Origin: a virus
Lineage: Duplodnaviria; Heunggongvirae; Uroviricota; Caudoviricetes
DNA: 6,607 bases
IMG/VR virus record: IMGVR_UViG_2531839662_000008
Coordinates: 1 to 6,607 of that record
Strand: one strand, 5' to 3'
The notes below the pieces were generated by a model that worked only from the letters and a program-made list of their open reading frames with translations, ran no database searches and was not told where the DNA came from. Position 1 is the stretch's first letter; each line of letters starts with the position of its first letter. Made by a program: the position numbers and the translations under genes. Below, in pieces: positions 1 through 6,607 of this stretch.

Positions 1-1
1 A

Positions 2-646
2 GGGCAAATAAATGAGTTGGTGACTCCGTTGCCGTATGTTTCCAGCGTAAGGAATCTAACAACATCTAATTCTGGTGCTGATACAGAGTCAGATGATAAT
101 TATGCTGAAAGAATAAAACTGTCGCCGGAAAAACTGTCTACAGCAGGGCCGGAGGATTCTTATAAATATTGGACAAGAACAGCCAATCAGAATATAAAAG
201 ATGTGAATGTATATACACCATCGCCCGGAACTGTAGAAATCCGTTCTTTGTTAGAGAACGGAGATATACCTTCTGATGAACTATTGGAGCAGATAAATAG
301 CGTTCTCTCTGCAACTAATATTCGACCATTCACAGATAAAGTTCTTGTTAAGAAACCAGAGAGCATTGAATACGATATAATAATTAAATACTGGATTAAC
401 TCATCGGACAAAAACAGAACAACATTAATTCAAAGTGAGGTTGAGAAAGCTATTGATGAGTATAAACAATGGCAACGTTCGGTTATGGGAAGAGATATAA
501 ATCCAGATGAAATTATTCAACGTTTAAAAAATGCCGGGGCTAAAAGATTAGAAATATCAAGTCCTGTATTTACTGTGGTTGGAGAGACGCAGGTCGCCAG
601 AGAGAGAAATGTAAATTGCCAGTATGCGGGGTTAGAGGATGGCTGA
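2..646 (+). CDS. Baseplate assembly protein J-like (P2 gpJ / Mu gp47 family), C-terminal part; 5' end lies outside the window
   Basis: Reading frame is open from the window start (no stop upstream of the listed start at 17). Translation contains the acidic 'ESDDNYAERI' motif typical of baseplate-J proteins. Stop overlaps the start of the next gene (639 ATG), and the next gene is gpI-like, giving the conserved J-I-fibre order. AT-rich codon usage. Confidence 0.7.
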   Translation, partial: GQINELVTPLPYVSSVRNLTTSNSGADTESDDNYAERIKLSPEKLSTAGPEDSYKYWTRTANQNIKDVNVYTPSPGTVEIRSLLENGDIPSDELLEQINSVLSATNIRPFTDKVLVKKPESIEYDIIIKYWINSSDKNRTTLIQSEVEKAIDEYKQWQRSVMGRDINPDEIIQRLKNAGAKRLEISSPVFTVVGETQVARERNVNCQYAGLEDG

Positions 647-1220
647 TATCTTTAATGTTAGCTTGTTGGATGTTTTACCTCCTAACTTAGCTAGAGATCC
701 CAACGTGATAGCTATGTCGAAAGCTATCGATGATGAACTACAAGCAATTAACAATTTAATATATAAGACAGAAATATATAGCGTTGTTGATAACCTGGAT
801 TCAGTTGTTCTCGATCATTTAGCTTGGCAATGGAATGCTGATACATGGAGGGATAGTTGGCCTGTATCGTTAAAGCGTTCTGTTTTTAAATCAATAATAC
901 GAACAAAGCGAATAAAGGGTACAAGGGCAGCGGTTGAAGATGTAGTAAATAGCTTGGGTGGAGAGGTAAACATAACAGAATGGTTTGAAACATCACCACC
1001 TGGCGAACCATATACAGCCTCAATTGTTGCTTCGATTAACTCTTTTGATGGTGCCGTTCCTTCGAAAGAGATGTTGGAAGATACGTTAAGAAGTATCAAG
1101 AGCGCAAAGTCGGCAAGAACATTATTTACATTTTCGCAAGCAGCCAATGTTTCTGGTGGTGTCGGTATTGTTGGTGCTTGTCAGCCTGTGTCTTATGTAC
1201 GATTAATTGGCGAGTGCTAA
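639..1220 (+). CDS. Phage tail protein I-like (P2 gpI family)
   Basis: 193-aa ORF whose start is translationally coupled to the J-like gene. The segment 'LDHLAWQWNADTWRDSWPVSLKRSV...GTRAAVEDVVNSLGGEVNITEWFETSPPGEPYT' matches my recollection of the gpI pattern (W..W, KR.V, G...A, NVTEW). Positioned between the J-like gene and the fibre gene. Confidence 0.7.
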   Translation: MADIFNVSLLDVLPPNLARDPNVIAMSKAIDDELQAINNLIYKTEIYSVVDNLDSVVLDHLAWQWNADTWRDSWPVSLKRSVFKSIIRTKRIKGTRAAVEDVVNSLGGEVNITEWFETSPPGEPYTASIVASINSFDGAVPSKEMLEDTLRSIKSAKSARTLFTFSQAANVSGGVGIVGACQPVSYVRLIGEC

Positions 1221-1250
1221 TTCGCAATTTGTTAATTCAAGGAATTAAGC

Positions 1251-2147
1251 GTGAGTAAATTATTATTTACGATGACTGACGCCGGGCGTCAGGAGCTGGT
1301 TAATGCCAACAAAACAGGAACAAATAAAGTTGAGATTGTTTCTGTTGGTTTAGGTAGTAGATATTATGTCACGTCAACTTCACAAACAAATATAACAAAC
1401 GAAATAAAACGACTTACCACAATAGGTGGCAAAGTTGTTTCCCCTGATACAATTCATGTAACAGCGAAGGATGATAGTAAAGATGAGTATGTTGTCCATA
1501 CAATAGGATTGTATACGAATAAGGGTACGTTGTTTGCTGTATACTCACAAGAACAAGCAATAATAAATAAAGCATCATCTACTATCGCTTTAATATCAAG
1601 TGATATAGCAATTAAAACTCTTGATACTAAAAATATTACATTTGGTGATATTGAGTTTATTAATCCTCCCGCGACCGAAACTGTTGTTGGGGTTGCAAGA
1701 TTTGCCAATGAACAAGAAATTGATGACGGTACAGATGATTCCCTTGCTGTTTCAGCAAAGCGGCTTAAGCAAGCCATTGTGAAACATGAACAATCACGTA
1801 ATCATCCTGATGCAACTTTAACCTCAAAAGGCTTTGTTCAACTTAGCAGCGCCACCAATAGCACGTCTGAAACGCTTGCTGCGACGCCTAAGGCTGTTAA
1901 GGCAGCATATGACCTGGCTAATGGCAAATACACCGCACAGGACGCTACCACAGCGCGAAAAGGGATTGTTCAGCTCAGTAGTGCCACCAACAGCACGTCT
2001 GAAACGCTAGCAGCAACACCAAAGGCTGTTAAGGCAGCGTATGATCTTGCGGCCGGAAAGGCTCCGTCCAATCACACGCATTCGTGGGAGCAGATAACAA
2101 ATGTGCCTGTAGCTTCACTGACTGTAAGGGGAATAACTGGGGTCTGA
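1251..2147 (+). pseudogene. Tail fibre protein, N-terminal part only; 3' end replaced by a Tn3-family inverted repeat at 2139 (the stop at 2145-2147 lies inside the repeat)
   Basis: GTG start at 1251 with AAGGA 6 nt upstream. N-terminal tail-collar/fibre attachment-type domain, then 'HEQSRNHPDATLTSKGFVQLSSATNSTSETLAATPKAVKAAYDLANGKYTAQDATTARKG' fibre repeats (two copies), then 'APSNHTHSWEQITNVP'. The last codons (LTVRGITGV*) are encoded by the junction and the Tn3 repeat GGGGTCTGA, so the native C-terminus is missing. Confidence 0.75.
1827..2050 (+). repeat. Tandem 132-bp (44-codon) phage tail-fibre repeats, about 1.7 copies
   Basis: 'aaaggctttgttcaacttagcagcgccaccaatagcacgtctgaaacg...' at 1827 recurs as 'aaagggattgttcagctcagtagtgccaccaacagcacgtctgaaacg...' at 1959. 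Encoded peptide repeat is KG[FI]VQLSSATNSTSETLAATPKAVKAAYDLA. Confidence 0.85.
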
Positions 2148-2176
2148 CGCTCAGTGGAACGAAAACTCACGTTAAG
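2139..2176 (+). repeat. Tn3-family (Tn1/Tn2/Tn3-type) 38-bp terminal inverted repeat, outer end at 2139
   Basis: Sequence GGGGTCTGACGCTCAGTGGAACGAAAACTCACGTTAAG matches the Tn3 terminal repeat as I recall it. It is not followed by the bla-proximal interior (GGATTTTGGTCATGAG), so this is probably the tnpA-proximal end. Confidence 0.8.
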
Positions 2177-2223
2177 CAACGTTTTCTGCCTCTGACGCCT
2201 CTTTTAATGGTCTCAGATGTCCT
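2139..2223 (-). mobile_element. Remnant of a Tn3-family transposon (terminal repeat plus about 47 bp of interior, probably the 3' end of tnpA), truncated by IS26
   Basis: Terminal repeat at 2139..2176 followed by 47 bp that run straight into the IS26 left repeat at 2224. A minus-strand reading frame terminates at 2167..2169 inside the repeat, as expected for the tnpA end of Tn3-family elements; that frame continues as antisense into IS26, so only the 2177..2223 part could be tnpA-derived. Confidence 0.65.
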
Positions 2224-3043
2224 GGCACTGTTGCAAATAGTCGGTGGTGATAAACTTATCATCCCCTTTTGCTGATGGAGCTGCACATGAACCCATTCAA
2301 AGGCCGGCATTTTCAGCGTGACATCATTCTGTGGGCCGTACGCTGGTACTGCAAATACGGCATCAGTTACCGTGAGCTGCAGGAGATGCTGGCTGAACGC
2401 GGAGTGAATGTCGATCACTCCACGATTTACCGCTGGGCTCAGCGTTATGCGCCTGAAATGGAAAAACGGCTGCGCTGGTACTGGCGTAACCCTTCCGATC
2501 TTTGCCCGTGGCACATGGATGAAACCTACGTGAAGGTCAATGGCCGCTGGGCGTATCTGTACCGGGCCGTCGACAGCCGGGGCCGCACTGTCGATTTTTA
2601 TCTCTCCTCCCGTCGTAACAGCAAAGCTGCATACCGGTTTCTGGGTAAAATCCTCAACAACGTGAAGAAGTGGCAGATCCCGCGATTCATCAACACGGAT
2701 AAAGCGCCCGCCTATGGTCGCGCGCTTGCTCTGCTCAAACGCGAAGGCCGGTGCCCGTCTGACGTTGAACACCGACAGATTAAGTACCGGAACAACGTGA
2801 TTGAATGCGATCATGGCAAACTGAAACGGATAATCGGCGCCACGCTGGGATTTAAATCCATGAAGACGGCTTACGCCACCATCAAAGGTATTGAGGTGAT
2901 GCGTGCACTACGCAAAGGCCAGGCCTCAGCATTTTATTATGGTGATCCCCTGGGCGAAATGCGCCTGGTAAGCAGAGTTTTTGAAATGTAAGGCCTTTGA
3001 ATAAGACAAAAGGCTGCCTCATCGCTAACTTTGCAACAGTGCC
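2224..3043 (+). mobile_element. IS26 (IS6 family), complete 820-bp copy
   Basis: 14-bp terminal inverted repeats GGCACTGTTGCAAA at 2224..2237 and TTTGCAACAGTGCC at 3030..3043. Internal ORF is the canonical Tnp26 sequence (MNPFKGRHFQRDIILWAVRWYCKYGISYRELQEMLAERGVNVDHSTIYRW...). The flanking 8-mers differ (GATGTCCT vs TTATTGCG), so there is no target-site duplication. Confidence 0.95.
2287..2991 (+). CDS. tnp26: IS26 transposase Tnp26 (234 aa)
   Basis: Translation from ATG 2287 begins MNPFKGRHFQRDIILWAVRW and ends ...GEMRLVSRVFEM, the IS26 transposase with its DDE motif. The listed ORF start at 2269 (MLMELH...) is an upstream in-frame extension; the canonical start is 2287. Confidence 0.93.
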   Translation: MNPFKGRHFQRDIILWAVRWYCKYGISYRELQEMLAERGVNVDHSTIYRWAQRYAPEMEKRLRWYWRNPSDLCPWHMDETYVKVNGRWAYLYRAVDSRGRTVDFYLSSRRNSKAAYRFLGKILNNVKKWQIPRFINTDKAPAYGRALALLKREGRCPSDVEHRQIKYRNNVIECDHGKLKRIIGATLGFKSMKTAYATIKGIEVMRALRKGQASAFYYGDPLGEMRLVSRVFEM

Positions 3044-5108
3044 TTATTGCGGAGCTGGTTATTCCTCCTGAAACGGGCGGATTCTGGATCCGGGAAATTG
3101 GTGTATTTGATGAGCACGGCGATTTAATCGCGGTGGGCAATACTGCCGAAAGTTACAAGCCAGCCGTTGCTGAAGGGTCCGGTCGTGCACAAACATTTCG
3201 CACCATTCTGACCGTATCCAGCACGGCCACCGTGGCGCTTACCGTGGATAACACCATGGTGATGGCCACAGTGGATTACGTGGATGACAAACTGAAAGAG
3301 CATGAACAGTCACGACGTCACCCGGACGCCTCGCTGACCGCAAAAGGCTTTGTTCAACTCAGTAGCGCCACTAACAGCGTGTCTGAAACGCAGGCTGCAA
3401 CGCCGAAAGCGGTTAAGGCCGCATATGACCTGGCTAACGGAAAATATACCGCTCAGGACGCCACGACGGCACGAAAAGGCCTTGTCCAGCTCAGTAGCGC
3501 CACCAACAGCACGTCTGAAACGCAGGCTGCAACGCCGAAAGCAGTAAAGGCCGCGTATGACCTTGCTAACGCAAAATATACCGCTCAGGACGCCACGACG
3601 GCACAAAAAGGGATAGTCCAGCTCAGTAGTGCCACCAACAGCACGTCTGAAACACTGGCCGCGACATCGAAAGCGGTTAAGGCGGTAATGGATGAAACGA
3701 ACAAGAAAGCGCCCTTAAACAGTCCTGCGTTGACCGGAACGCCAACAACGCCAACTGCGCGACAGGGAACGAATAATACCCAAATCGCAAGCACGGCTTT
3801 CGTTATGGCTGCGATTGCCGCCCTTGTAGATTCGTCACCTGACGCACTGAATACGCTGAACGAGTTAGCGGCGGCGCTGGGAAACGACCCGAATTTTGCG
3901 ACCACCATGACTAACGCGCTTGCGGGTAAGCAACCGAAAGATGCCACCCTGACGGTGCTGGCCGGGCTTGCTACTGCGGCAGACAAGTTTCCGTATTTTA
4001 CGGGGAATGATGTCGCCAGCCTGGCAACCCTGACAAAAGTCGGGCGGGATATTCTTGCGAAATCGACCGTTGCTGCCGTTATCGAATACCTCGGTTTACA
4101 GGAAACGGTAAACAGGGCTGGTAACGCCGTGCAAAAAAATGGCGATACCTTGTCCGGTGGGCTTACTTTTGAAAACGACTCAATCCTTGCCTGGATTCGA
4201 AATACTGACTGGGCAAAGATTGGTTTTAAAAATGATGCCGATAGCGATACTGATTCATACATGTGGTTTGAAACAGGCGACAACGGCAATGAATATTTCA
4301 AATGGAGAAGCAAACAAAGCACCACAACAAAAGACCTGATGAATCTTAAATGGGATGCTTTGTCTGTTCTTGTTAAAGCCCTTTTCAGCAGTGAAGTAAA
4401 AATATCGACAGTCAATGCACTGAGGATATTTAATTCATCTTTTGGTGCCATTTTTCGCCGTTCTGAAGAATGCCTGCATATCATCCCTACACGAGAGAAT
4501 GAGGGGGAAAATGGCGATATAGGGCCGCTACGCCCCTTTACGCTTAATCTCAGAACTGGTCGCATAAATATGGGGCATGGTCTGGATGTTACAGGAGATA
4601 TAACAACTAACGCATGGGTGTACGCAAACCGCTTGCAATTAACAGCAGCACAGGCATGTGGATTCATATGCGTGACCAGAATGTTATTTTTGGACGTAAT
4701 GCGGTATCCACTGATGGTGCTCAGGCTTTGCTCCGTCAGGACCATGCCGACCGCAAATTTATGATTGGCGGTCTGGGAAATAAGCAATTTGGCATCTACA
4801 TGATTAATAACTCAAGGACAGCCAATGGCACCGATGGTCAGGCGTACATGGACAATAACGGTAACTGGCTTTGCGGTGCGCAAATTATTCCCGGAAATTA
4901 TGGCAATTTTGACTCACGCTATGTGAGAGATGTCCGACTTGGCACACGTGTTGTTCAATTGATGGCGCGTGGAGGGCGTTATGAAATAGCCGGACACGCA
5001 CTTACCGGATTAAGGATTATTGGTGAAGTTGATGGCGATGATGAAGCTATCTTCAGGCCGATACAAAAATACATCAATGGCATATGGTATAACGTCGCAC
5101 AGGTGTAA
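3044..5108 (+). pseudogene. Tail fibre protein (P2 gpH / P1-Mu S type), 5'-truncated by IS26 and apparently frameshifted (-1) near 4630
   Basis: Coding sequence starts mid-gene directly at the IS26 right end ('..IAELVIPPETGGFWIREIGVFDEHGDLIAVGNTAESYKPAVAEGSGR..' is an internal stretch of gpH-type N-terminal domains). Then three fibre repeats, then 'TAFVMAAIAALVDSSPDALNTLNELAAALGNDPNFATTMTNALAGKQPKDATLTVLAGLATAADKFPYFTGN'. Frame 1 is protein-like up to about 4632 (..NAWVYANR), after which only frame 3 is protein-like (LAINSSTGMWIHMRDQNVIFGRNAV...IPGNYGNFDSRYVRDVRLGTRVVQ...RPIQKYINGIWYNVAQV*), implying a 1-nt deletion. The listed ORF's TTG start at 3031 lies inside IS26 and is not a real start. 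Confidence 0.75.
3343..3690 (+). repeat. Tandem 132-bp tail-fibre repeats, about 2.6 copies, homologous to those at 1827..2050
   Basis: Units begin at 3343, 3475 and 3607 ('aaaggctttgttcaactcagtagcgcc', 'aaaggccttgtccagctcagtagcgcc', 'aaagggatagtccagctcagtagtgcc'). A 35-nt stretch 3619..3653 is identical to 1971..2005. Confidence 0.85.
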
Positions 5109-5111
5109 ATT

Positions 5112-5638
5112 ATGCAGCATTTAAAAAATATTAAGTCTGGAAATCCAAAAACAAAAGAACAATATCAGCTAACAAAGAATTTTGATGTTATCTGGTTATG
5201 GTCCGAAGACGGAAAAAACTGGTATGAGGAAGTGAAAAACTTTCAGCCAGACACAATAAAGATGTTTACGATGCAAATAATATTATTGTCGCCATCACCA
5301 AAGATGCCTCCACGCTTAACCCTGAAGGTTATAGCGTCGTTGAGGTTCCTGATATTACAGCTAATCGTCGTGCTGATGATTCCGGTAAGTGGATGTTTAA
5401 GGACGGAGCTGTGGTTAAACGGATTTATACGGCAGACGAGCAACAACAACAGGCCGAATCACAAAAGGCCGCGTTACTTTCCGAAGCAGAAAACGTTATT
5501 CAGCCACTGGAACGCGCTGTCAGGCTGAATATGGCGACGGATGAGGAACGCGCACGACTGGAGTCATGGGAACGCTATAGTGTTCTGGTCAGCCGTGTGG
5601 ATACGGCAAATCCTGAATGGCCACAAAAGCCTGAATAA
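5112..5638 (+). pseudogene. Tail-fibre assembly chaperone (lambda Tfa / P2 gpG / Mu U family) with an apparent 1-nt deletion at about 5264
   Basis: N-terminus [51 protein letters not shown] closely parallels the intact minus-strand paralogue ([54 protein letters not shown]...). After codon 51 the frame becomes junk; shifting by -1 at 5264 gives [65 protein letters not shown]...PEWPQKPE*, which runs to the stop at 5638. ATG at 5112 lies 3 nt after the fibre stop. Confidence 0.75.
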
Positions 5639-5643
5639 AAATT

Positions 5644-5663
5644 AAGGCCCGATAGCGGGCCTT
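5644..5663. terminator. Bidirectional intrinsic-terminator-like hairpin between the convergent chaperone genes
   Basis: Perfect 8-bp stem AAGGCCCG / CGGGCCTT with a 4-nt loop ATAG. It sits in the 28-bp gap between the stop at 5638 (plus) and the stop at 5667..5669 (minus), with an A-rich tract on one side (TAAAAATT) and a T-rich tract on the other (TTGTTTCATT). Confidence 0.6.
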
Positions 5664-5666
5664 GTT

Positions 5667-6200
5667 TCATTCTGGTTGTTCTGGAAACGTTACTGGCAGG
5701 CTGGAGGTGTCTGTGGATTCGACCTTCTGCGCATAGAGCATCCACTCGGTTAATTTTTGTTTATTCTCGTCGGGAATGATACCCAGCCGTAGCTGTGAGT
5801 CCCATAGCTGGGTTTTATCCCTGACAAGTTGCAACAGGCTTTGCTTTTCATTCTCTGCCTGCTGCCTCTGTTCCTCCTCGGTATAAGTTCGCTTTATCAC
5901 TACGCCATCTTTGAACATCCATTTACCCGAAATATCAGCCCGGCGATTTGCTGTAATATCAGGTAATTCAACGACGCTTGCGCCTTCCGGATTAATTGCT
6001 GAAACATCCTTTTCAATACAAATAATAACGCCGTTATGGTCATAGACCATTTTCAAAGTGTCTGGCTGGAAATTCTTTTGTTCCTCATACCAGTTTTTTC
6101 CATCATCTGAATAAAGCCATTTGATGTTAAATTGCTTTGTTAGCTGGTATTGCTCTTTTGTTTTAGGGTTGCCAGCAGTAATGTTTTTTAAGTGCATCAT
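5667..6200 (-). CDS. Tail-fibre assembly chaperone, alternative copy (Tfa' / U'-like), intact
   Basis: 177-aa ORF. N-terminal 50 aa are highly similar to the plus-strand chaperone, and the C-terminal half is divergent. Start ATG lies 2 nt after the stop of the upstream minus-strand fibre-tip ORF (translational coupling). Confidence 0.8.
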   Translation of the reverse strand: MMHLKNITAGNPKTKEQYQLTKQFNIKWLYSDDGKNWYEEQKNFQPDTLKMVYDHNGVIICIEKDVSAINPEGASVVELPDITANRRADISGKWMFKDGVVIKRTYTEEEQRQQAENEKQSLLQLVRDKTQLWDSQLRLGIIPDENKQKLTEWMLYAQKVESTDTSSLPVTFPEQPE

Positions 6201-6202
6201 CG

Positions 6203-6607
6203 TTAAATACTCCCCGCGTTATACCACGTCCCATTAATGCAATACTGAATTGGCCTTGCCTGAGTTGTATCAATTAATTCATCACGGTTTCCGTTAACTG
6301 AACCCGTAACGACATAACCTGACCTGTCAGACCAGCCGGGGCCATTCCATGTCTGAACAGATGACAGACCGCCAAGGCGAATACCTGTAATAAACCTTGA
6401 GTTACATTCTGCCTGCGTGTATGCACCAACATCTCCCGCAGAGGGTTTGCGGGTCGTGGTGTAAAACTCTGACCAGTTAGCCTCAAATCCATAACCATCA
6501 CGCGCTGAACGATAAAAAATACCGCCGTTCCTGTAATTCACGCGGAACTGTACAGCAGGGCAGCTCCCCGTATTCATATTGAAGTGGAGGATTAATGTCG
6601 ATGCGCC
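6203..6607 (-). CDS. Alternative tail-fibre C-terminal (receptor-binding tip) segment, partial; continues past the right edge of the window
   Basis: Minus-strand frame is open to the window edge (…GASTLILHFNMNTGSC…), so the listed Met at 6577 is internal. The C-terminal end '...RPIQYCINGTWYNAGSI*' parallels the plus-strand fibre end 'RPIQKYINGIWYNVAQV*'; the rest is divergent. Immediately followed by its own chaperone. Confidence 0.7.
   Translation of the reverse strand, partial: GASTLILHFNMNTGSCPAVQFRVNYRNGGIFYRSARDGYGFEANWSEFYTTTRKPSAGDVGAYTQAECNSRFITGIRLGGLSSVQTWNGPGWSDRSGYVVTGSVNGNRDELIDTTQARPIQYCINGTWYNAGSI

What the first reader, a model, noticed from the sequence alone, without database searches (positions are those of the whole stretch)
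1827..3690. Directly repeated fibre-repeat DNA flanks the IS26 island: substrate for in-frame recombination
The 132-bp fibre repeats at 1827..2050 and 3343..3690 are in the same orientation and the same codon phase relative to their genes, and include a 35-nt perfect identity (1971..2005 = 3619..3653). Homologous recombination between them would delete the Tn3 remnant, IS26 and the orphan N-terminal fragment, producing an in-frame chimeric fibre (AT-rich N-terminal domain plus the right gene's distal part). It also suggests the left gene's repeat region was itself acquired by such an exchange, since it is much more GC-rich than the rest of that gene.
Basis: seen in the sequence. Interest (0 to 1): 0.5.

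Follow-up and report, generated by a model that had tools for sequence, protein, structure and literature searches.

The report
Two phage fibre genes joined by IS26
Two tail-fibre genes from different E. coli phages sit side by side across an IS26 insertion and share a real 275-nt similar stretch that could recombine in frame, but this is the familiar way phage fibre genes swap parts and no such event was found here.

Summary
Window 1785-2059 and 3301-3575 are direct repeats, 81% identical over 275 nt. They include the 35-nt exact run (1971-2005 = 3619-3653) and a 25-nt run, and every register is in codon phase.

The window is the whole contig AFAB02000093.1 of E. coli 2.3916. It joins two different phages. 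The left arm (1-2138) is 99% identical to a ~49-kb phage-plasmid (Yersinia phage vB_YpM_39 / pO145_122715_2 family). Its fibre gene is cut after codon 296 by a Tn3 end. An 85-bp Tn3 remnant and IS26 (2224-3043) follow. The right arm (3044-6607) is 99.0-99.4% identical to chromosomal P2-type prophages: gene H lacking its first 229 nt, then G and part of the invertible G'/H' segment.

The repeats are the shared collar plus PF03406 module of the two fibre genes. Deleting 1516 nt would give a fibre colinear with intact family fibres (96.8% amino-acid identity to AP019710.1), but only if a one-base frameshift after 4631 is repaired. Relatives switch from left-arm to right-arm alleles inside the repeat. 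No descendant of this particular pair was found, and the right-hand junction exists only in this draft contig. This is an ordinary, known kind of fibre mosaicism and of low interest.

The parts
1..646 (+). 3' part of the baseplate J gene of the phage-plasmid (left arm)
   Evidence: PF04865 Baseplate_J, E 2.3e-38. 99.0% identical to vB_YpM_39.
639..1220 (+). P2 gpI-like tail protein gene of the phage-plasmid
   Evidence: PF09684 Tail_P2_I, E 3.9e-27.
1251..1784 (+). Left fibre gene: AT-rich N-terminal domain specific to the phage-plasmid (inferred to be the baseplate-attachment part)
   Evidence: GC 0.361. PF12571 only below threshold, 21.2 bits vs a cut-off of 23. No BLASTP similarity to the P2-type H N-terminus, E 0.23. 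P2-type phages do not match upstream of 1783.
1785..2059 (+). Left copy of the direct repeat: collar (HEQSRNHPDA) plus about 1.7 units of the 132-nt PF03406 fibre repeat
   Evidence: Family D1 reference copy. PF03406, 2 stretches, E 2e-41. GC 0.50.
2060..2138 (+). Left-type post-repeat segment (GKAPSNHTHSWEQITNVPVASLTVRGIT). The fibre gene is cut after codon 296 by the Tn3 end.
   Evidence: Intact relatives L002, L011 and L012 continue past 2138 into a third repeat. The identical junction is present in NOEZ01000041.1.
2139..2223 (.). Tn3-family remnant: 38-bp terminal inverted repeat plus 47 bp of the tnpA 3' end
   Evidence: Exact 38-bp inverted repeat at 2139 (the IR sequence is from my own knowledge). 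Matches at 99.5% lie under annotated Tn3 transposase genes.
2224..3043 (+). IS26, 820 bp, tnp26 at 2287-2991. No 8-bp target duplication (GATGTCCT / TTATTGCG).
   Evidence: Perfect 14-bp inverted repeats (I12). PF13610, E 2.4e-48. 819 of 820 identical to annotated IS26 copies; the one difference is C at 2438, giving V51A. Flanks.
3044..3300 (+). Remaining part of the N-terminal domain of a P2-type gene H (the first 229 nt are missing)
   Evidence: PF12571 profile positions 74-149 of 150, E 8.3e-27. The junction corresponds to L010 9001 in a CDS that starts at 8772. 100% identical to several chromosomal prophages.
3301..3707 (+). Right copy of the direct repeat: collar plus about 2.6 units of the 132-nt PF03406 repeat (two registers relative to the left copy)
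   Evidence: D1 copies at 3301-3575 (81%) and 3433-3707 (72%). TRF 3342-3683. PF03406, 3 stretches, E 1.7e-60.
3708..5108 (+). Distal part of P2-type H: constant shaft up to the inversion site at 4079-4104, then the variable tip. Frameshifted by loss of one C after 4631.
   Evidence: 99.0-99.4% identical to chromosomal P2-type prophages. Indel. Inversion site.
5112..5638 (+). Tail-fibre assembly gene G, frameshifted by loss of one T after 5262
   Evidence: PF02413 on the 5411-5638 product. Indel.
5667..6200 (-). Alternative tail-fibre assembly gene G' (inverted)
   Evidence: PF02413, E 6.2e-36. The exact protein lies in P2-type prophages on large contigs in all 9 places shown.
6203..6607 (-). 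3' part of the alternative fibre tip H' (inverted). It runs off the contig end.
   Evidence: Colinear with the H' CDS of E110019 and of the family plasmids.

Best explanation
The window is a junction between the tail-fibre loci of two different temperate phages of E. coli 2.3916. On the left is the J-I-fibre region of a ~48-49-kb RepA/ParA phage-plasmid. A Tn3-family transposon inserted after codon 296 of its fibre gene, and IS26 later removed all but 85 bp of that transposon. On the right of IS26 is a P2-type prophage fibre operon: H lacking its first 229 nt, then G, then part of the invertible G'/H' cassette. The direct repeats are not a local duplication. They are the homologous collar plus PF03406-repeat modules that both fibre genes carry between an N-terminal domain specific to each phage (inferred to be the part that attaches to the baseplate) and an exchangeable distal part. 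Because the two genes point the same way and the module is in phase, a crossover within it would delete 1516 or 1648 nt. That deletion removes the left gene's tail, the Tn3 remnant, IS26 and the H fragment, and recreates a fibre of the type that most intact members of the phage-plasmid family already have. Shown: the anatomy, the origin of each arm, the phase, the product, and mosaic joints at this module in relatives. Inferred: that the junction arose through IS26 (cointegrate formation or IS26-IS26 recombination, given the absence of a target duplication), and that recombination across the repeats can happen. It should be rare (about 1e-6 or less per generation or burst) and would more likely use a phage recombination function than RecA alone.
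For: Left arm 1-2138 is 98.97% identical to vB_YpM_39 and 98-99% to 48-kb plasmids. The family has RepA, ParA, ParB-like proteins, a toxin-antitoxin pair and a full myovirus structural module. Right arm 3044-6607 is 99.0% identical to the E110019 chromosome and 99.3-99.4% to six other P2-type prophage loci. Its exact G' protein lies in P2-type prophages in all 9 places shown. The left junction is independently present in NOEZ01000041.1, 100% identical over 2215 nt. Both tracts map to the same positions of the intact relative L001. The predicted product is 96.8% identical to a natural intact fibre and colinear with at least 12 family plasmids. L001 and L013 switch alleles inside repeat unit 2. 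Published benchmark: phage Rad52-like recombinases give about 8e-7 recombinants per phage on 79% identity over 980 bp with a longest exact run of 41 bp; the minimal exact pairing segment is 31-34 bp for RecA and 23-27 bp for Red-beta (PMC3945230).
Against: The IS26/H junction is seen only in this one 6.6-kb draft contig. It is absent from 72,556 plasmids, 5,426 complete E. coli genomes, and the metagenome, viral and species-representative collections, so physical linkage of the two arms is unconfirmed. No recombinant derived from this pair was found. As sequenced, the product is frameshifted. The tract is short (275 nt) and 19% diverged, with only one exact run above the RecA minimum. No read data could be examined.
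Confidence: 0.7

Rival explanations
1. Assembly chimera. The two arms lie on different replicons, the phage-plasmid and the chromosome, each next to its own copy of IS26, and the 2011-era draft assembly joined them across the collapsed IS26. There would then be no deletion substrate in cis. The repeats would only allow intermolecular exchange or plasmid integration.
For: The right junction exists only in this contig. Neither junction is in any complete record. IS26 has no target duplication. The sister assembly breaks 77 nt into Tn3 and gives no linkage information. The contig is short, and both ends fall inside genes.
Against: Assemblers usually break at multicopy IS elements rather than bridge them, so a contig that crosses IS26 suggests pairing or long-read support. 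Hybrid flanks without a target duplication are also what IS26 cointegrate formation or IS26-IS26 recombination produces (established knowledge of IS26). The left arm of the contig is error-free relative to an independent assembly.
Confidence: 0.2
2. The linkage is real but the repeats are inert. The similarity simply reflects a conserved protein module. At 19% divergence, with mismatch repair active, recombination is negligible, and the locus is a decaying dead end: the fibre is disrupted and H and G are frameshifted.
For: Two frameshifts in the right arm that all four aligned close relatives lack. The J gene is possibly frameshifted in the sister assembly. Only one exact run of 31 nt or more. 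No recombinant was found.
Against: Relatives show allele switches inside this very module. Exchange at comparable divergence has been measured at about 1e-6 with phage recombinases (PMC3945230). The family encodes an annotated Ref-family recombination-enhancement nuclease.
Confidence: 0.3
3. The right arm is a fragment of a P2-type prophage captured onto the phage-plasmid, for example as an IS26-bounded translocatable unit or by recombination in the ~94%-identical G/G'/H' region. In that case the whole window is plasmid-borne, rather than a plasmid-chromosome cointegrate.
For: Family plasmids carry a G/G'/H' cassette 87-95% identical to the right arm, which is a far better recombination substrate than the repeats. 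The 45.4-kb sister contig lacks about 3.6 kb of a 49-kb genome, roughly the distal fibre plus the invertible cassette (my arithmetic). IS26 next to P2-type H genes on plasmids is seen elsewhere (L006).
Against: The right arm is uniformly closer to chromosomal prophages (99.0-99.4%) than to any family plasmid (87-95%) all the way to 6607. No plasmid record contains the junction.
Confidence: 0.2

Closest known systems
Mosaic tail-fibre genes of P2, P1, Mu, lambda and T4 (Haggard-Ljungquist, Halling and Calendar 1992; Sandmeier 1994, both cited in PMC3945230)
   Same: Conserved sequence motifs inside fibre genes act as joints where a phage-specific proximal part is combined with an exchangeable distal part. 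Here the joint is the collar plus PF03406 repeat, and relatives switch parent inside it.
   Different: Here the two parental genes are in tandem on one contig, separated by IS26. Exchange would therefore be a simple deletion rather than a cross between co-infecting genomes.
Relaxed homologous recombination between temperate phages and defective prophages (De Paepe et al. 2014, PMC3945230)
   Same: Diverged fibre-gene homology (79-88% in their assays) between a phage and a resident defective prophage serves as a recombination substrate. The identity and longest exact run here (81%, 35 nt) are in the same range.
   Different: The tract here is shorter (275 nt vs 700-980). No recombination was measured. 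Whether these elements encode a Rad52-like recombinase is unknown; only a Ref-family nuclease is annotated in the family.
IS26-mediated cointegrates and hybrid junctions (IS6 family)
   Same: 820-bp IS26 with 14-bp inverted repeats, flanked by unrelated DNA on each side and without an 8-bp target duplication. This is what cointegrate formation or IS26-IS26 exchange leaves.
   Different: The partners are two phage fibre genes rather than resistance regions, and the second IS26 copy and the reciprocal junction were not seen.
Gin/Cin/Pin-type invertible fibre cassettes (Mu G segment, P1 C segment, e14 P segment)
   Same: The H constant part ends at a 26-bp crossover site (4079-4104) with inverted partners next to the invertase in relatives, and G/G' and H/H' are arranged head to head. 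Both orientations are seen in relatives.
   Different: This lies downstream of the finding and is not part of the proposed deletion. The invertase and the second site lie beyond the contig end.

Membership tests
Phage tail fibre repeat (Pfam PF03406, Phage_fiber_2) | Match to the 42-position profile above the gathering score, in tandem copies | tested here: met
   Left ORF: 139.7 bits, 2 stretches. Right ORF: 200.8 bits, 3 stretches. Cut-off 22.
IS26 (IS6 family) | 820-bp element with 14-bp perfect terminal inverted repeats and one DDE transposase | tested here: met
   2224-3043; inverted repeats GGCACTGTTGCAAA (I12); PF13610, E 2.4e-48; 819 of 820 identical to annotated IS26.
IS26 (IS6 family) | 8-bp target-site duplication flanking a simple insertion | tested here: not met
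   Flanks are GATGTCCT and TTATTGCG. This shows the copy is not a simple insertion; it is expected after cointegrate or recombination events and does not affect the element's identity.
Tn3-family transposon end | 38-bp terminal inverted repeat followed by the tnpA 3' end | tested here: met
   Exact 38-bp inverted repeat at 2139 (the IR sequence is from my own knowledge). 99.5% matches lie under annotated Tn3 transposase genes. Only 85 bp remain.
P2-type (Peduovirus-like) prophage fibre operon H-G with invertible cassette | Near-identity and colinearity with H, G, G', H' of prophages that carry P2 capsid, terminase, baseplate and ogr genes | tested here: met
   99.0-99.4% identity over 3564 nt to seven chromosomal loci with full P2 gene sets.
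P2-type (Peduovirus-like) prophage fibre operon H-G with invertible cassette | Intact H with the complete PF12571 N-terminal domain | tested here: not met
   The first 229 nt are missing. PF12571 matches only profile positions 74-149 of 150. There are also frameshifts after 4631 and 5262. It is a truncated remnant.
~48-kb RepA/ParA myovirus phage-plasmid family (vB_YpM_39, pO145_122715_2, pP136-7, ATCC 25922 48-kb plasmid) | Near-identity of J, I and the fibre N-terminal domain | tested here: met
   98-99% identity over 2138 nt.
~48-kb RepA/ParA myovirus phage-plasmid family (vB_YpM_39, pO145_122715_2, pP136-7, ATCC 25922 48-kb plasmid) | Plasmid replication and partition genes on the same molecule | not testable with these tools
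   These genes lie outside the 6.6-kb contig. They are present in complete family members, and the identical left arm sits on a 45.4-kb contig in the sister assembly.
Homologous-recombination deletion substrate (direct repeats in cis) | Same orientation, on the same molecule, with exact runs at or above the minimal pairing length | tested here: inconclusive
   Orientation and phase are met. One 35-nt run exceeds the RecA minimum of 31-34, and the 35- and 25-nt runs exceed the Red-beta minimum of 23-27. Linkage on one molecule rests on a single draft contig.

The most novel reading that the evidence does not exclude
IS26 has physically docked a phage-plasmid onto a chromosomal P2-type prophage, placing their diverged fibre genes in tandem. 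One short deletion would then hand the prophage's host-range cassette (distal H, G and the invertible tips) to the phage-plasmid's virion module. That would make insertion-sequence-mediated cointegration a stepping stone for host-range exchange between episomal and integrated phages, and a route by which a phage-plasmid becomes a chromosomal prophage.
Probability: 0.1. Interest if true: 0.45.

Novelty: new member of a known kind. Interest (0 to 1): 0.18.

Why it matters
It is a clear, well-dated example of how transposable elements and a conserved fibre module can bring together and potentially reshuffle the host-range genes of two unrelated temperate phages living in one cell. It also shows a phage-plasmid whose fibre gene was knocked out by resistance-associated elements (Tn3, IS26). 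The principle, mosaic fibre genes exchanged at conserved motifs, has been known since the early 1990s. The value is therefore illustrative rather than conceptual, unless the plasmid-prophage fusion is confirmed.

Tried and rejected
1. Local duplication of one fibre gene. Rejected: the arms have different closest relatives (phage-plasmid vs P2-type prophage), and their N-terminal domains are unrelated.

2. Motif-level or chance similarity. Rejected: 81% nucleotide identity over 275 nt, and both tracts align to the same positions of intact relatives.

3. H61 and H62, chromosomes with IS26 between fibre pieces. These are independent IS26 insertions at other positions in P2-type H genes, not this structure.

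4. E. fergusonii IncY plasmids and pC-Ec2-KPC (L005, L006). IS26 lies near fibre genes, but the junctions differ.

5. Searches for either junction in complete plasmids, complete E. coli genomes, and the metagenome, viral and GTDB-representative collections. Nothing was found.

6. Search for the 85-bp Tn3 remnant/IS26 junction as a widespread unit. All ten best-listed hits were two separate pieces; a contiguous copy further down the list of ties cannot be excluded.

7. Literature search for the assembly accessions. No paper found. The strain name came from cluster records instead.

8. Looking up the right arm in the sister assembly through the exact G' protein. The protein is too common (156 blocks), and that assembly was not among the places shown.

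9. My first reading of the frameshifts as long-homopolymer errors. Corrected: they are CC to C and TT to T, so it remains open whether they are real or artefacts.


Full report
**1. What the window is**

An exact look-up of the truncated fibre ORF shows that the 6,607-nt window is the entire contig AFAB02000093.1 of assembly GCA_000194535.2. Cluster records name the source as Escherichia coli 2.3916, with proteins EII48580.1 and EII48581.1.

**2. Check of the observation**

- The repeat finder reports one dominant direct-repeat family. Its copies are 1785-2059 (reference), 3301-3575 (81%) and 3433-3707 (72%), each 275 nt.
- TRF finds a 132-nt period, 2.6 copies, at 3342-3683.
- The 35-nt exact run 1971-2005 = 3619-3653 is confirmed. 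There are further exact runs of 25 nt (1983-2007 = 3499-3523), 19, 17, 16 and 14 nt.
- All offsets (1516, 1648, 1780) are 1 mod 3, which equals the frame difference between the two ORFs. Any crossover in register is therefore in frame.
- Both proteins carry Pfam PF03406 (Phage_fiber_2): two stretches on the left and three on the right.
It ends near 2050/3566, after which the two genes are unalignable.
- The GC step is real: 0.361 for 1251-1784 against 0.50 for 1785-2138 (profile).

**3. The island**

- IS26 occupies 2224-3043: 820 bp, perfect 14-bp inverted repeats (I12), a DDE_Tnp_IS240 transposase, and 819 of 820 identity to annotated IS26 copies.
- To its left, 2139-2223 is the 38-bp Tn3 terminal inverted repeat plus 47 bp of the tnpA end.
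- The 8-bp flanks of IS26 differ (GATGTCCT and TTATTGCG). This copy is therefore not a simple insertion. It sits between DNA of two histories.

**4. The two arms come from two different phages**

Left arm:
- Window 1-2138 is 98.97% identical to Yersinia phage vB_YpM_39 (49 kb) and 98-99% identical to a family of ~48-kb non-mobilizable E. coli plasmids.
- A complete member, pP136-7, encodes RepA, ParA, ParB-like proteins, a RelE/ParE toxin-antitoxin pair and a full myovirus structural module. It is a phage-plasmid.
- In intact members the fibre is 774-786 aa. Here it is cut after codon 296.
- The same fibre/Tn3 junction, 100% identical over 2,215 nt, ends a 45.4-kb contig of a second assembly, NOEZ01000041.1. 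That contig stops 77 nt into Tn3, a typical k-mer break. The left junction is therefore independently confirmed.

Right arm:
- Window 3044-6607 is 99.0% identical over its full length to the chromosome of E. coli E110019, and 99.3-99.4% identical to six other loci.
- All of these lie inside complete P2-type prophages with P2 capsid, terminase, baseplate V/W/J/I, sheath, tube and ogr genes.
- IS26 abuts nucleotide 230 of gene H. Pfam PF12571 matches only profile positions 74-149 of 150. The "orphan N-terminal fragment" is thus the remainder of a 5'-truncated P2-type H.

**5. What the repeats are**

- Both window tracts align to the same positions of the uninterrupted relative AP019710.1 (L001 3285-3550). 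They are the homologous collar-plus-repeat modules of two different fibre genes, not a duplication.
- Upstream of the module the two proteins are unrelated by BLASTP (E 0.23). P2-type phages match the left gene only from 1783-1826 onward, at 80-87%.
- Intact family members come in two forms. L002, L011 and L012 follow the left arm to 2138 and then carry a third repeat. L001 and L013 follow it only to about 2050 and then continue as the right-arm (P2-H) type.
- At sites where the two window tracts differ, L001 and L013 carry left-arm alleles up to 1904, mixed alleles from 1922 to 2030, and right-arm alleles from about 2036 on. This is a mosaic joint inside repeat unit 2.
The event is a property of the whole family, not of this copy.

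**6. The predicted deletion**

- A crossover at offset 1516 removes 1,516 nt, and one at offset 1648 removes 1,648 nt.
- As sequenced, both products stop early (aa 665 and aa 621). The right arm lacks one C after 4631 relative to all four close relatives aligned. G likewise lacks one T after 5262.
- These are one-base losses in two-base runs. Whether they are true pseudogene mutations or draft errors cannot be decided here.
- With the C restored, the offset-1516 product is 780 aa and 96.8% identical end to end to the intact fibre of AP019710.1.
- A 1,070-nt query spanning the predicted junction matches at least a dozen family plasmids as a single ungapped piece at 92-95.7%. Nothing reaches 98%.
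- The product type is therefore the common natural architecture, but no descendant of this particular pair is known.

**7. How likely is the event?**

- De Paepe et al. (PMC3945230) give minimal exact pairing lengths of 31-34 bp for RecA and 23-27 bp for Red-beta.
- They measured about 8e-7 recombinants per phage on 79% identity over 980 bp with a 41-bp longest exact run, mostly dependent on the phage recombinase.
- Here the tract is 275 nt at 81%, with one 35-nt and one 25-nt run. I infer a rate no higher than that. It could be helped by phage functions: a Ref-family recombination-enhancement nuclease is annotated in the family.
- This step is inference only; nothing was measured.

**8. How the junction arose, and its main weakness**

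- The hybrid flanks fit either IS26 cointegrate formation into H or recombination between two IS26 copies, one beside the Tn3 remnant on the phage-plasmid and one in H. This rests on established IS26 behaviour and is inferred, not shown.
- The IS26/H junction is found only in this contig. It is absent from 72,556 plasmids and 5,426 complete E. coli genomes and from the metagenome, viral and species-representative collections.
- A chimeric join across multicopy IS26 therefore cannot be excluded. I put it at about 0.2.
- A plasmid-borne captured P2 fragment is also possible. The family's own G/G'/H' cassette is 87-95% identical to the right arm, a much better recombination substrate than the repeats.

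**9. Comparison with what is known, and verdict**

- Exchange of distal fibre parts at conserved motifs among unrelated phages is classical: Haggard-Ljungquist et al. 1992 and Sandmeier 1994, both cited in PMC3945230.
- Relaxed recombination between phages and defective prophages in fibre genes has been demonstrated experimentally (PMC3945230).
- IS26 hybrid junctions are commonplace.
- What is particular here is that the two diverged parents lie in tandem.
The feature is a new instance of a known kind, and interest is low (0.18).
- The most novel reading not excluded is IS26-mediated docking of a phage-plasmid onto a P2-type prophage as a stepping stone for host-range exchange (probability about 0.1).

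Noticed in passing
window 4079-4104: A 26-bp Gin/Cin-type inversion crossover site (TTATCGAATACCTCGGTTTACAGGAA) marks the border between the constant and variable parts of H. Relatives carry an inverted partner next to the invertase gene (L002 11646-11671, L010 13106-13131). The segment downstream of about 4075-4116 is found in both orientations in related loci (L011, L016, L022). The partner site and the invertase lie beyond the contig end.
   Followed up: partly
window 4631 and 5262: One-base losses (CC to C in H, TT to T in G) relative to all four close P2-type relatives aligned. They frameshift both genes. They are either real pseudogenisation of the truncated prophage or draft sequencing errors.
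   Followed up: partly
L002 8139.., L011 7138.., L012 2971.. (equivalent to just after window 2138): In intact left-type fibres the Tn3 target site is followed directly by a third PF03406 repeat. In L012 its first 40 nt are identical to window 3619-3658. The left-type fibre therefore has repeats on both sides of a ~29-aa insert.
   Followed up: partly
cluster of the 298-aa ORF (window 1251-2147): Many 'partial' fibre proteins of 246-303 aa sit at the ends of 44-48-kb contigs in other E. coli and Shigella drafts. Assemblies of this phage-plasmid habitually break inside the repeat tract. This suggests the tract is duplicated elsewhere in those genomes, so co-residence with a P2-type prophage may be common.
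   Followed up: no
L014 (pP136-7) 29077-29481: The phage-plasmid family encodes an annotated Ref-family recombination-enhancement nuclease. This could be relevant to recombination at short or diverged homologies. It rests on annotation only and was not examined.
   Followed up: no
L008 8273-9396 (NOEZ01000041.1), equivalent to upstream of and into window 1-646: Baseplate J is called as two overlapping ORFs spanning 1124 nt, which is not a multiple of three. That implies a frameshift in the sister assembly. The AFAB contig begins at the equivalent of L008 8751, inside that overlap.
   Followed up: no
window 2438: This IS26 copy differs from the annotated copies in L005 and L006 by one base (C for T), changing transposase residue 51 from V to A.
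   Followed up: partly
window 5112-5457 vs 5854-6200: G and G' form diverged inverted repeats (72-76% over about 150 nt each), and the H and H' 3' ends share a 40-nt inverted match (5055-5094 / 6217-6256). This is the usual head-to-head layout of alternative fibre tip and chaperone pairs.
   Followed up: no
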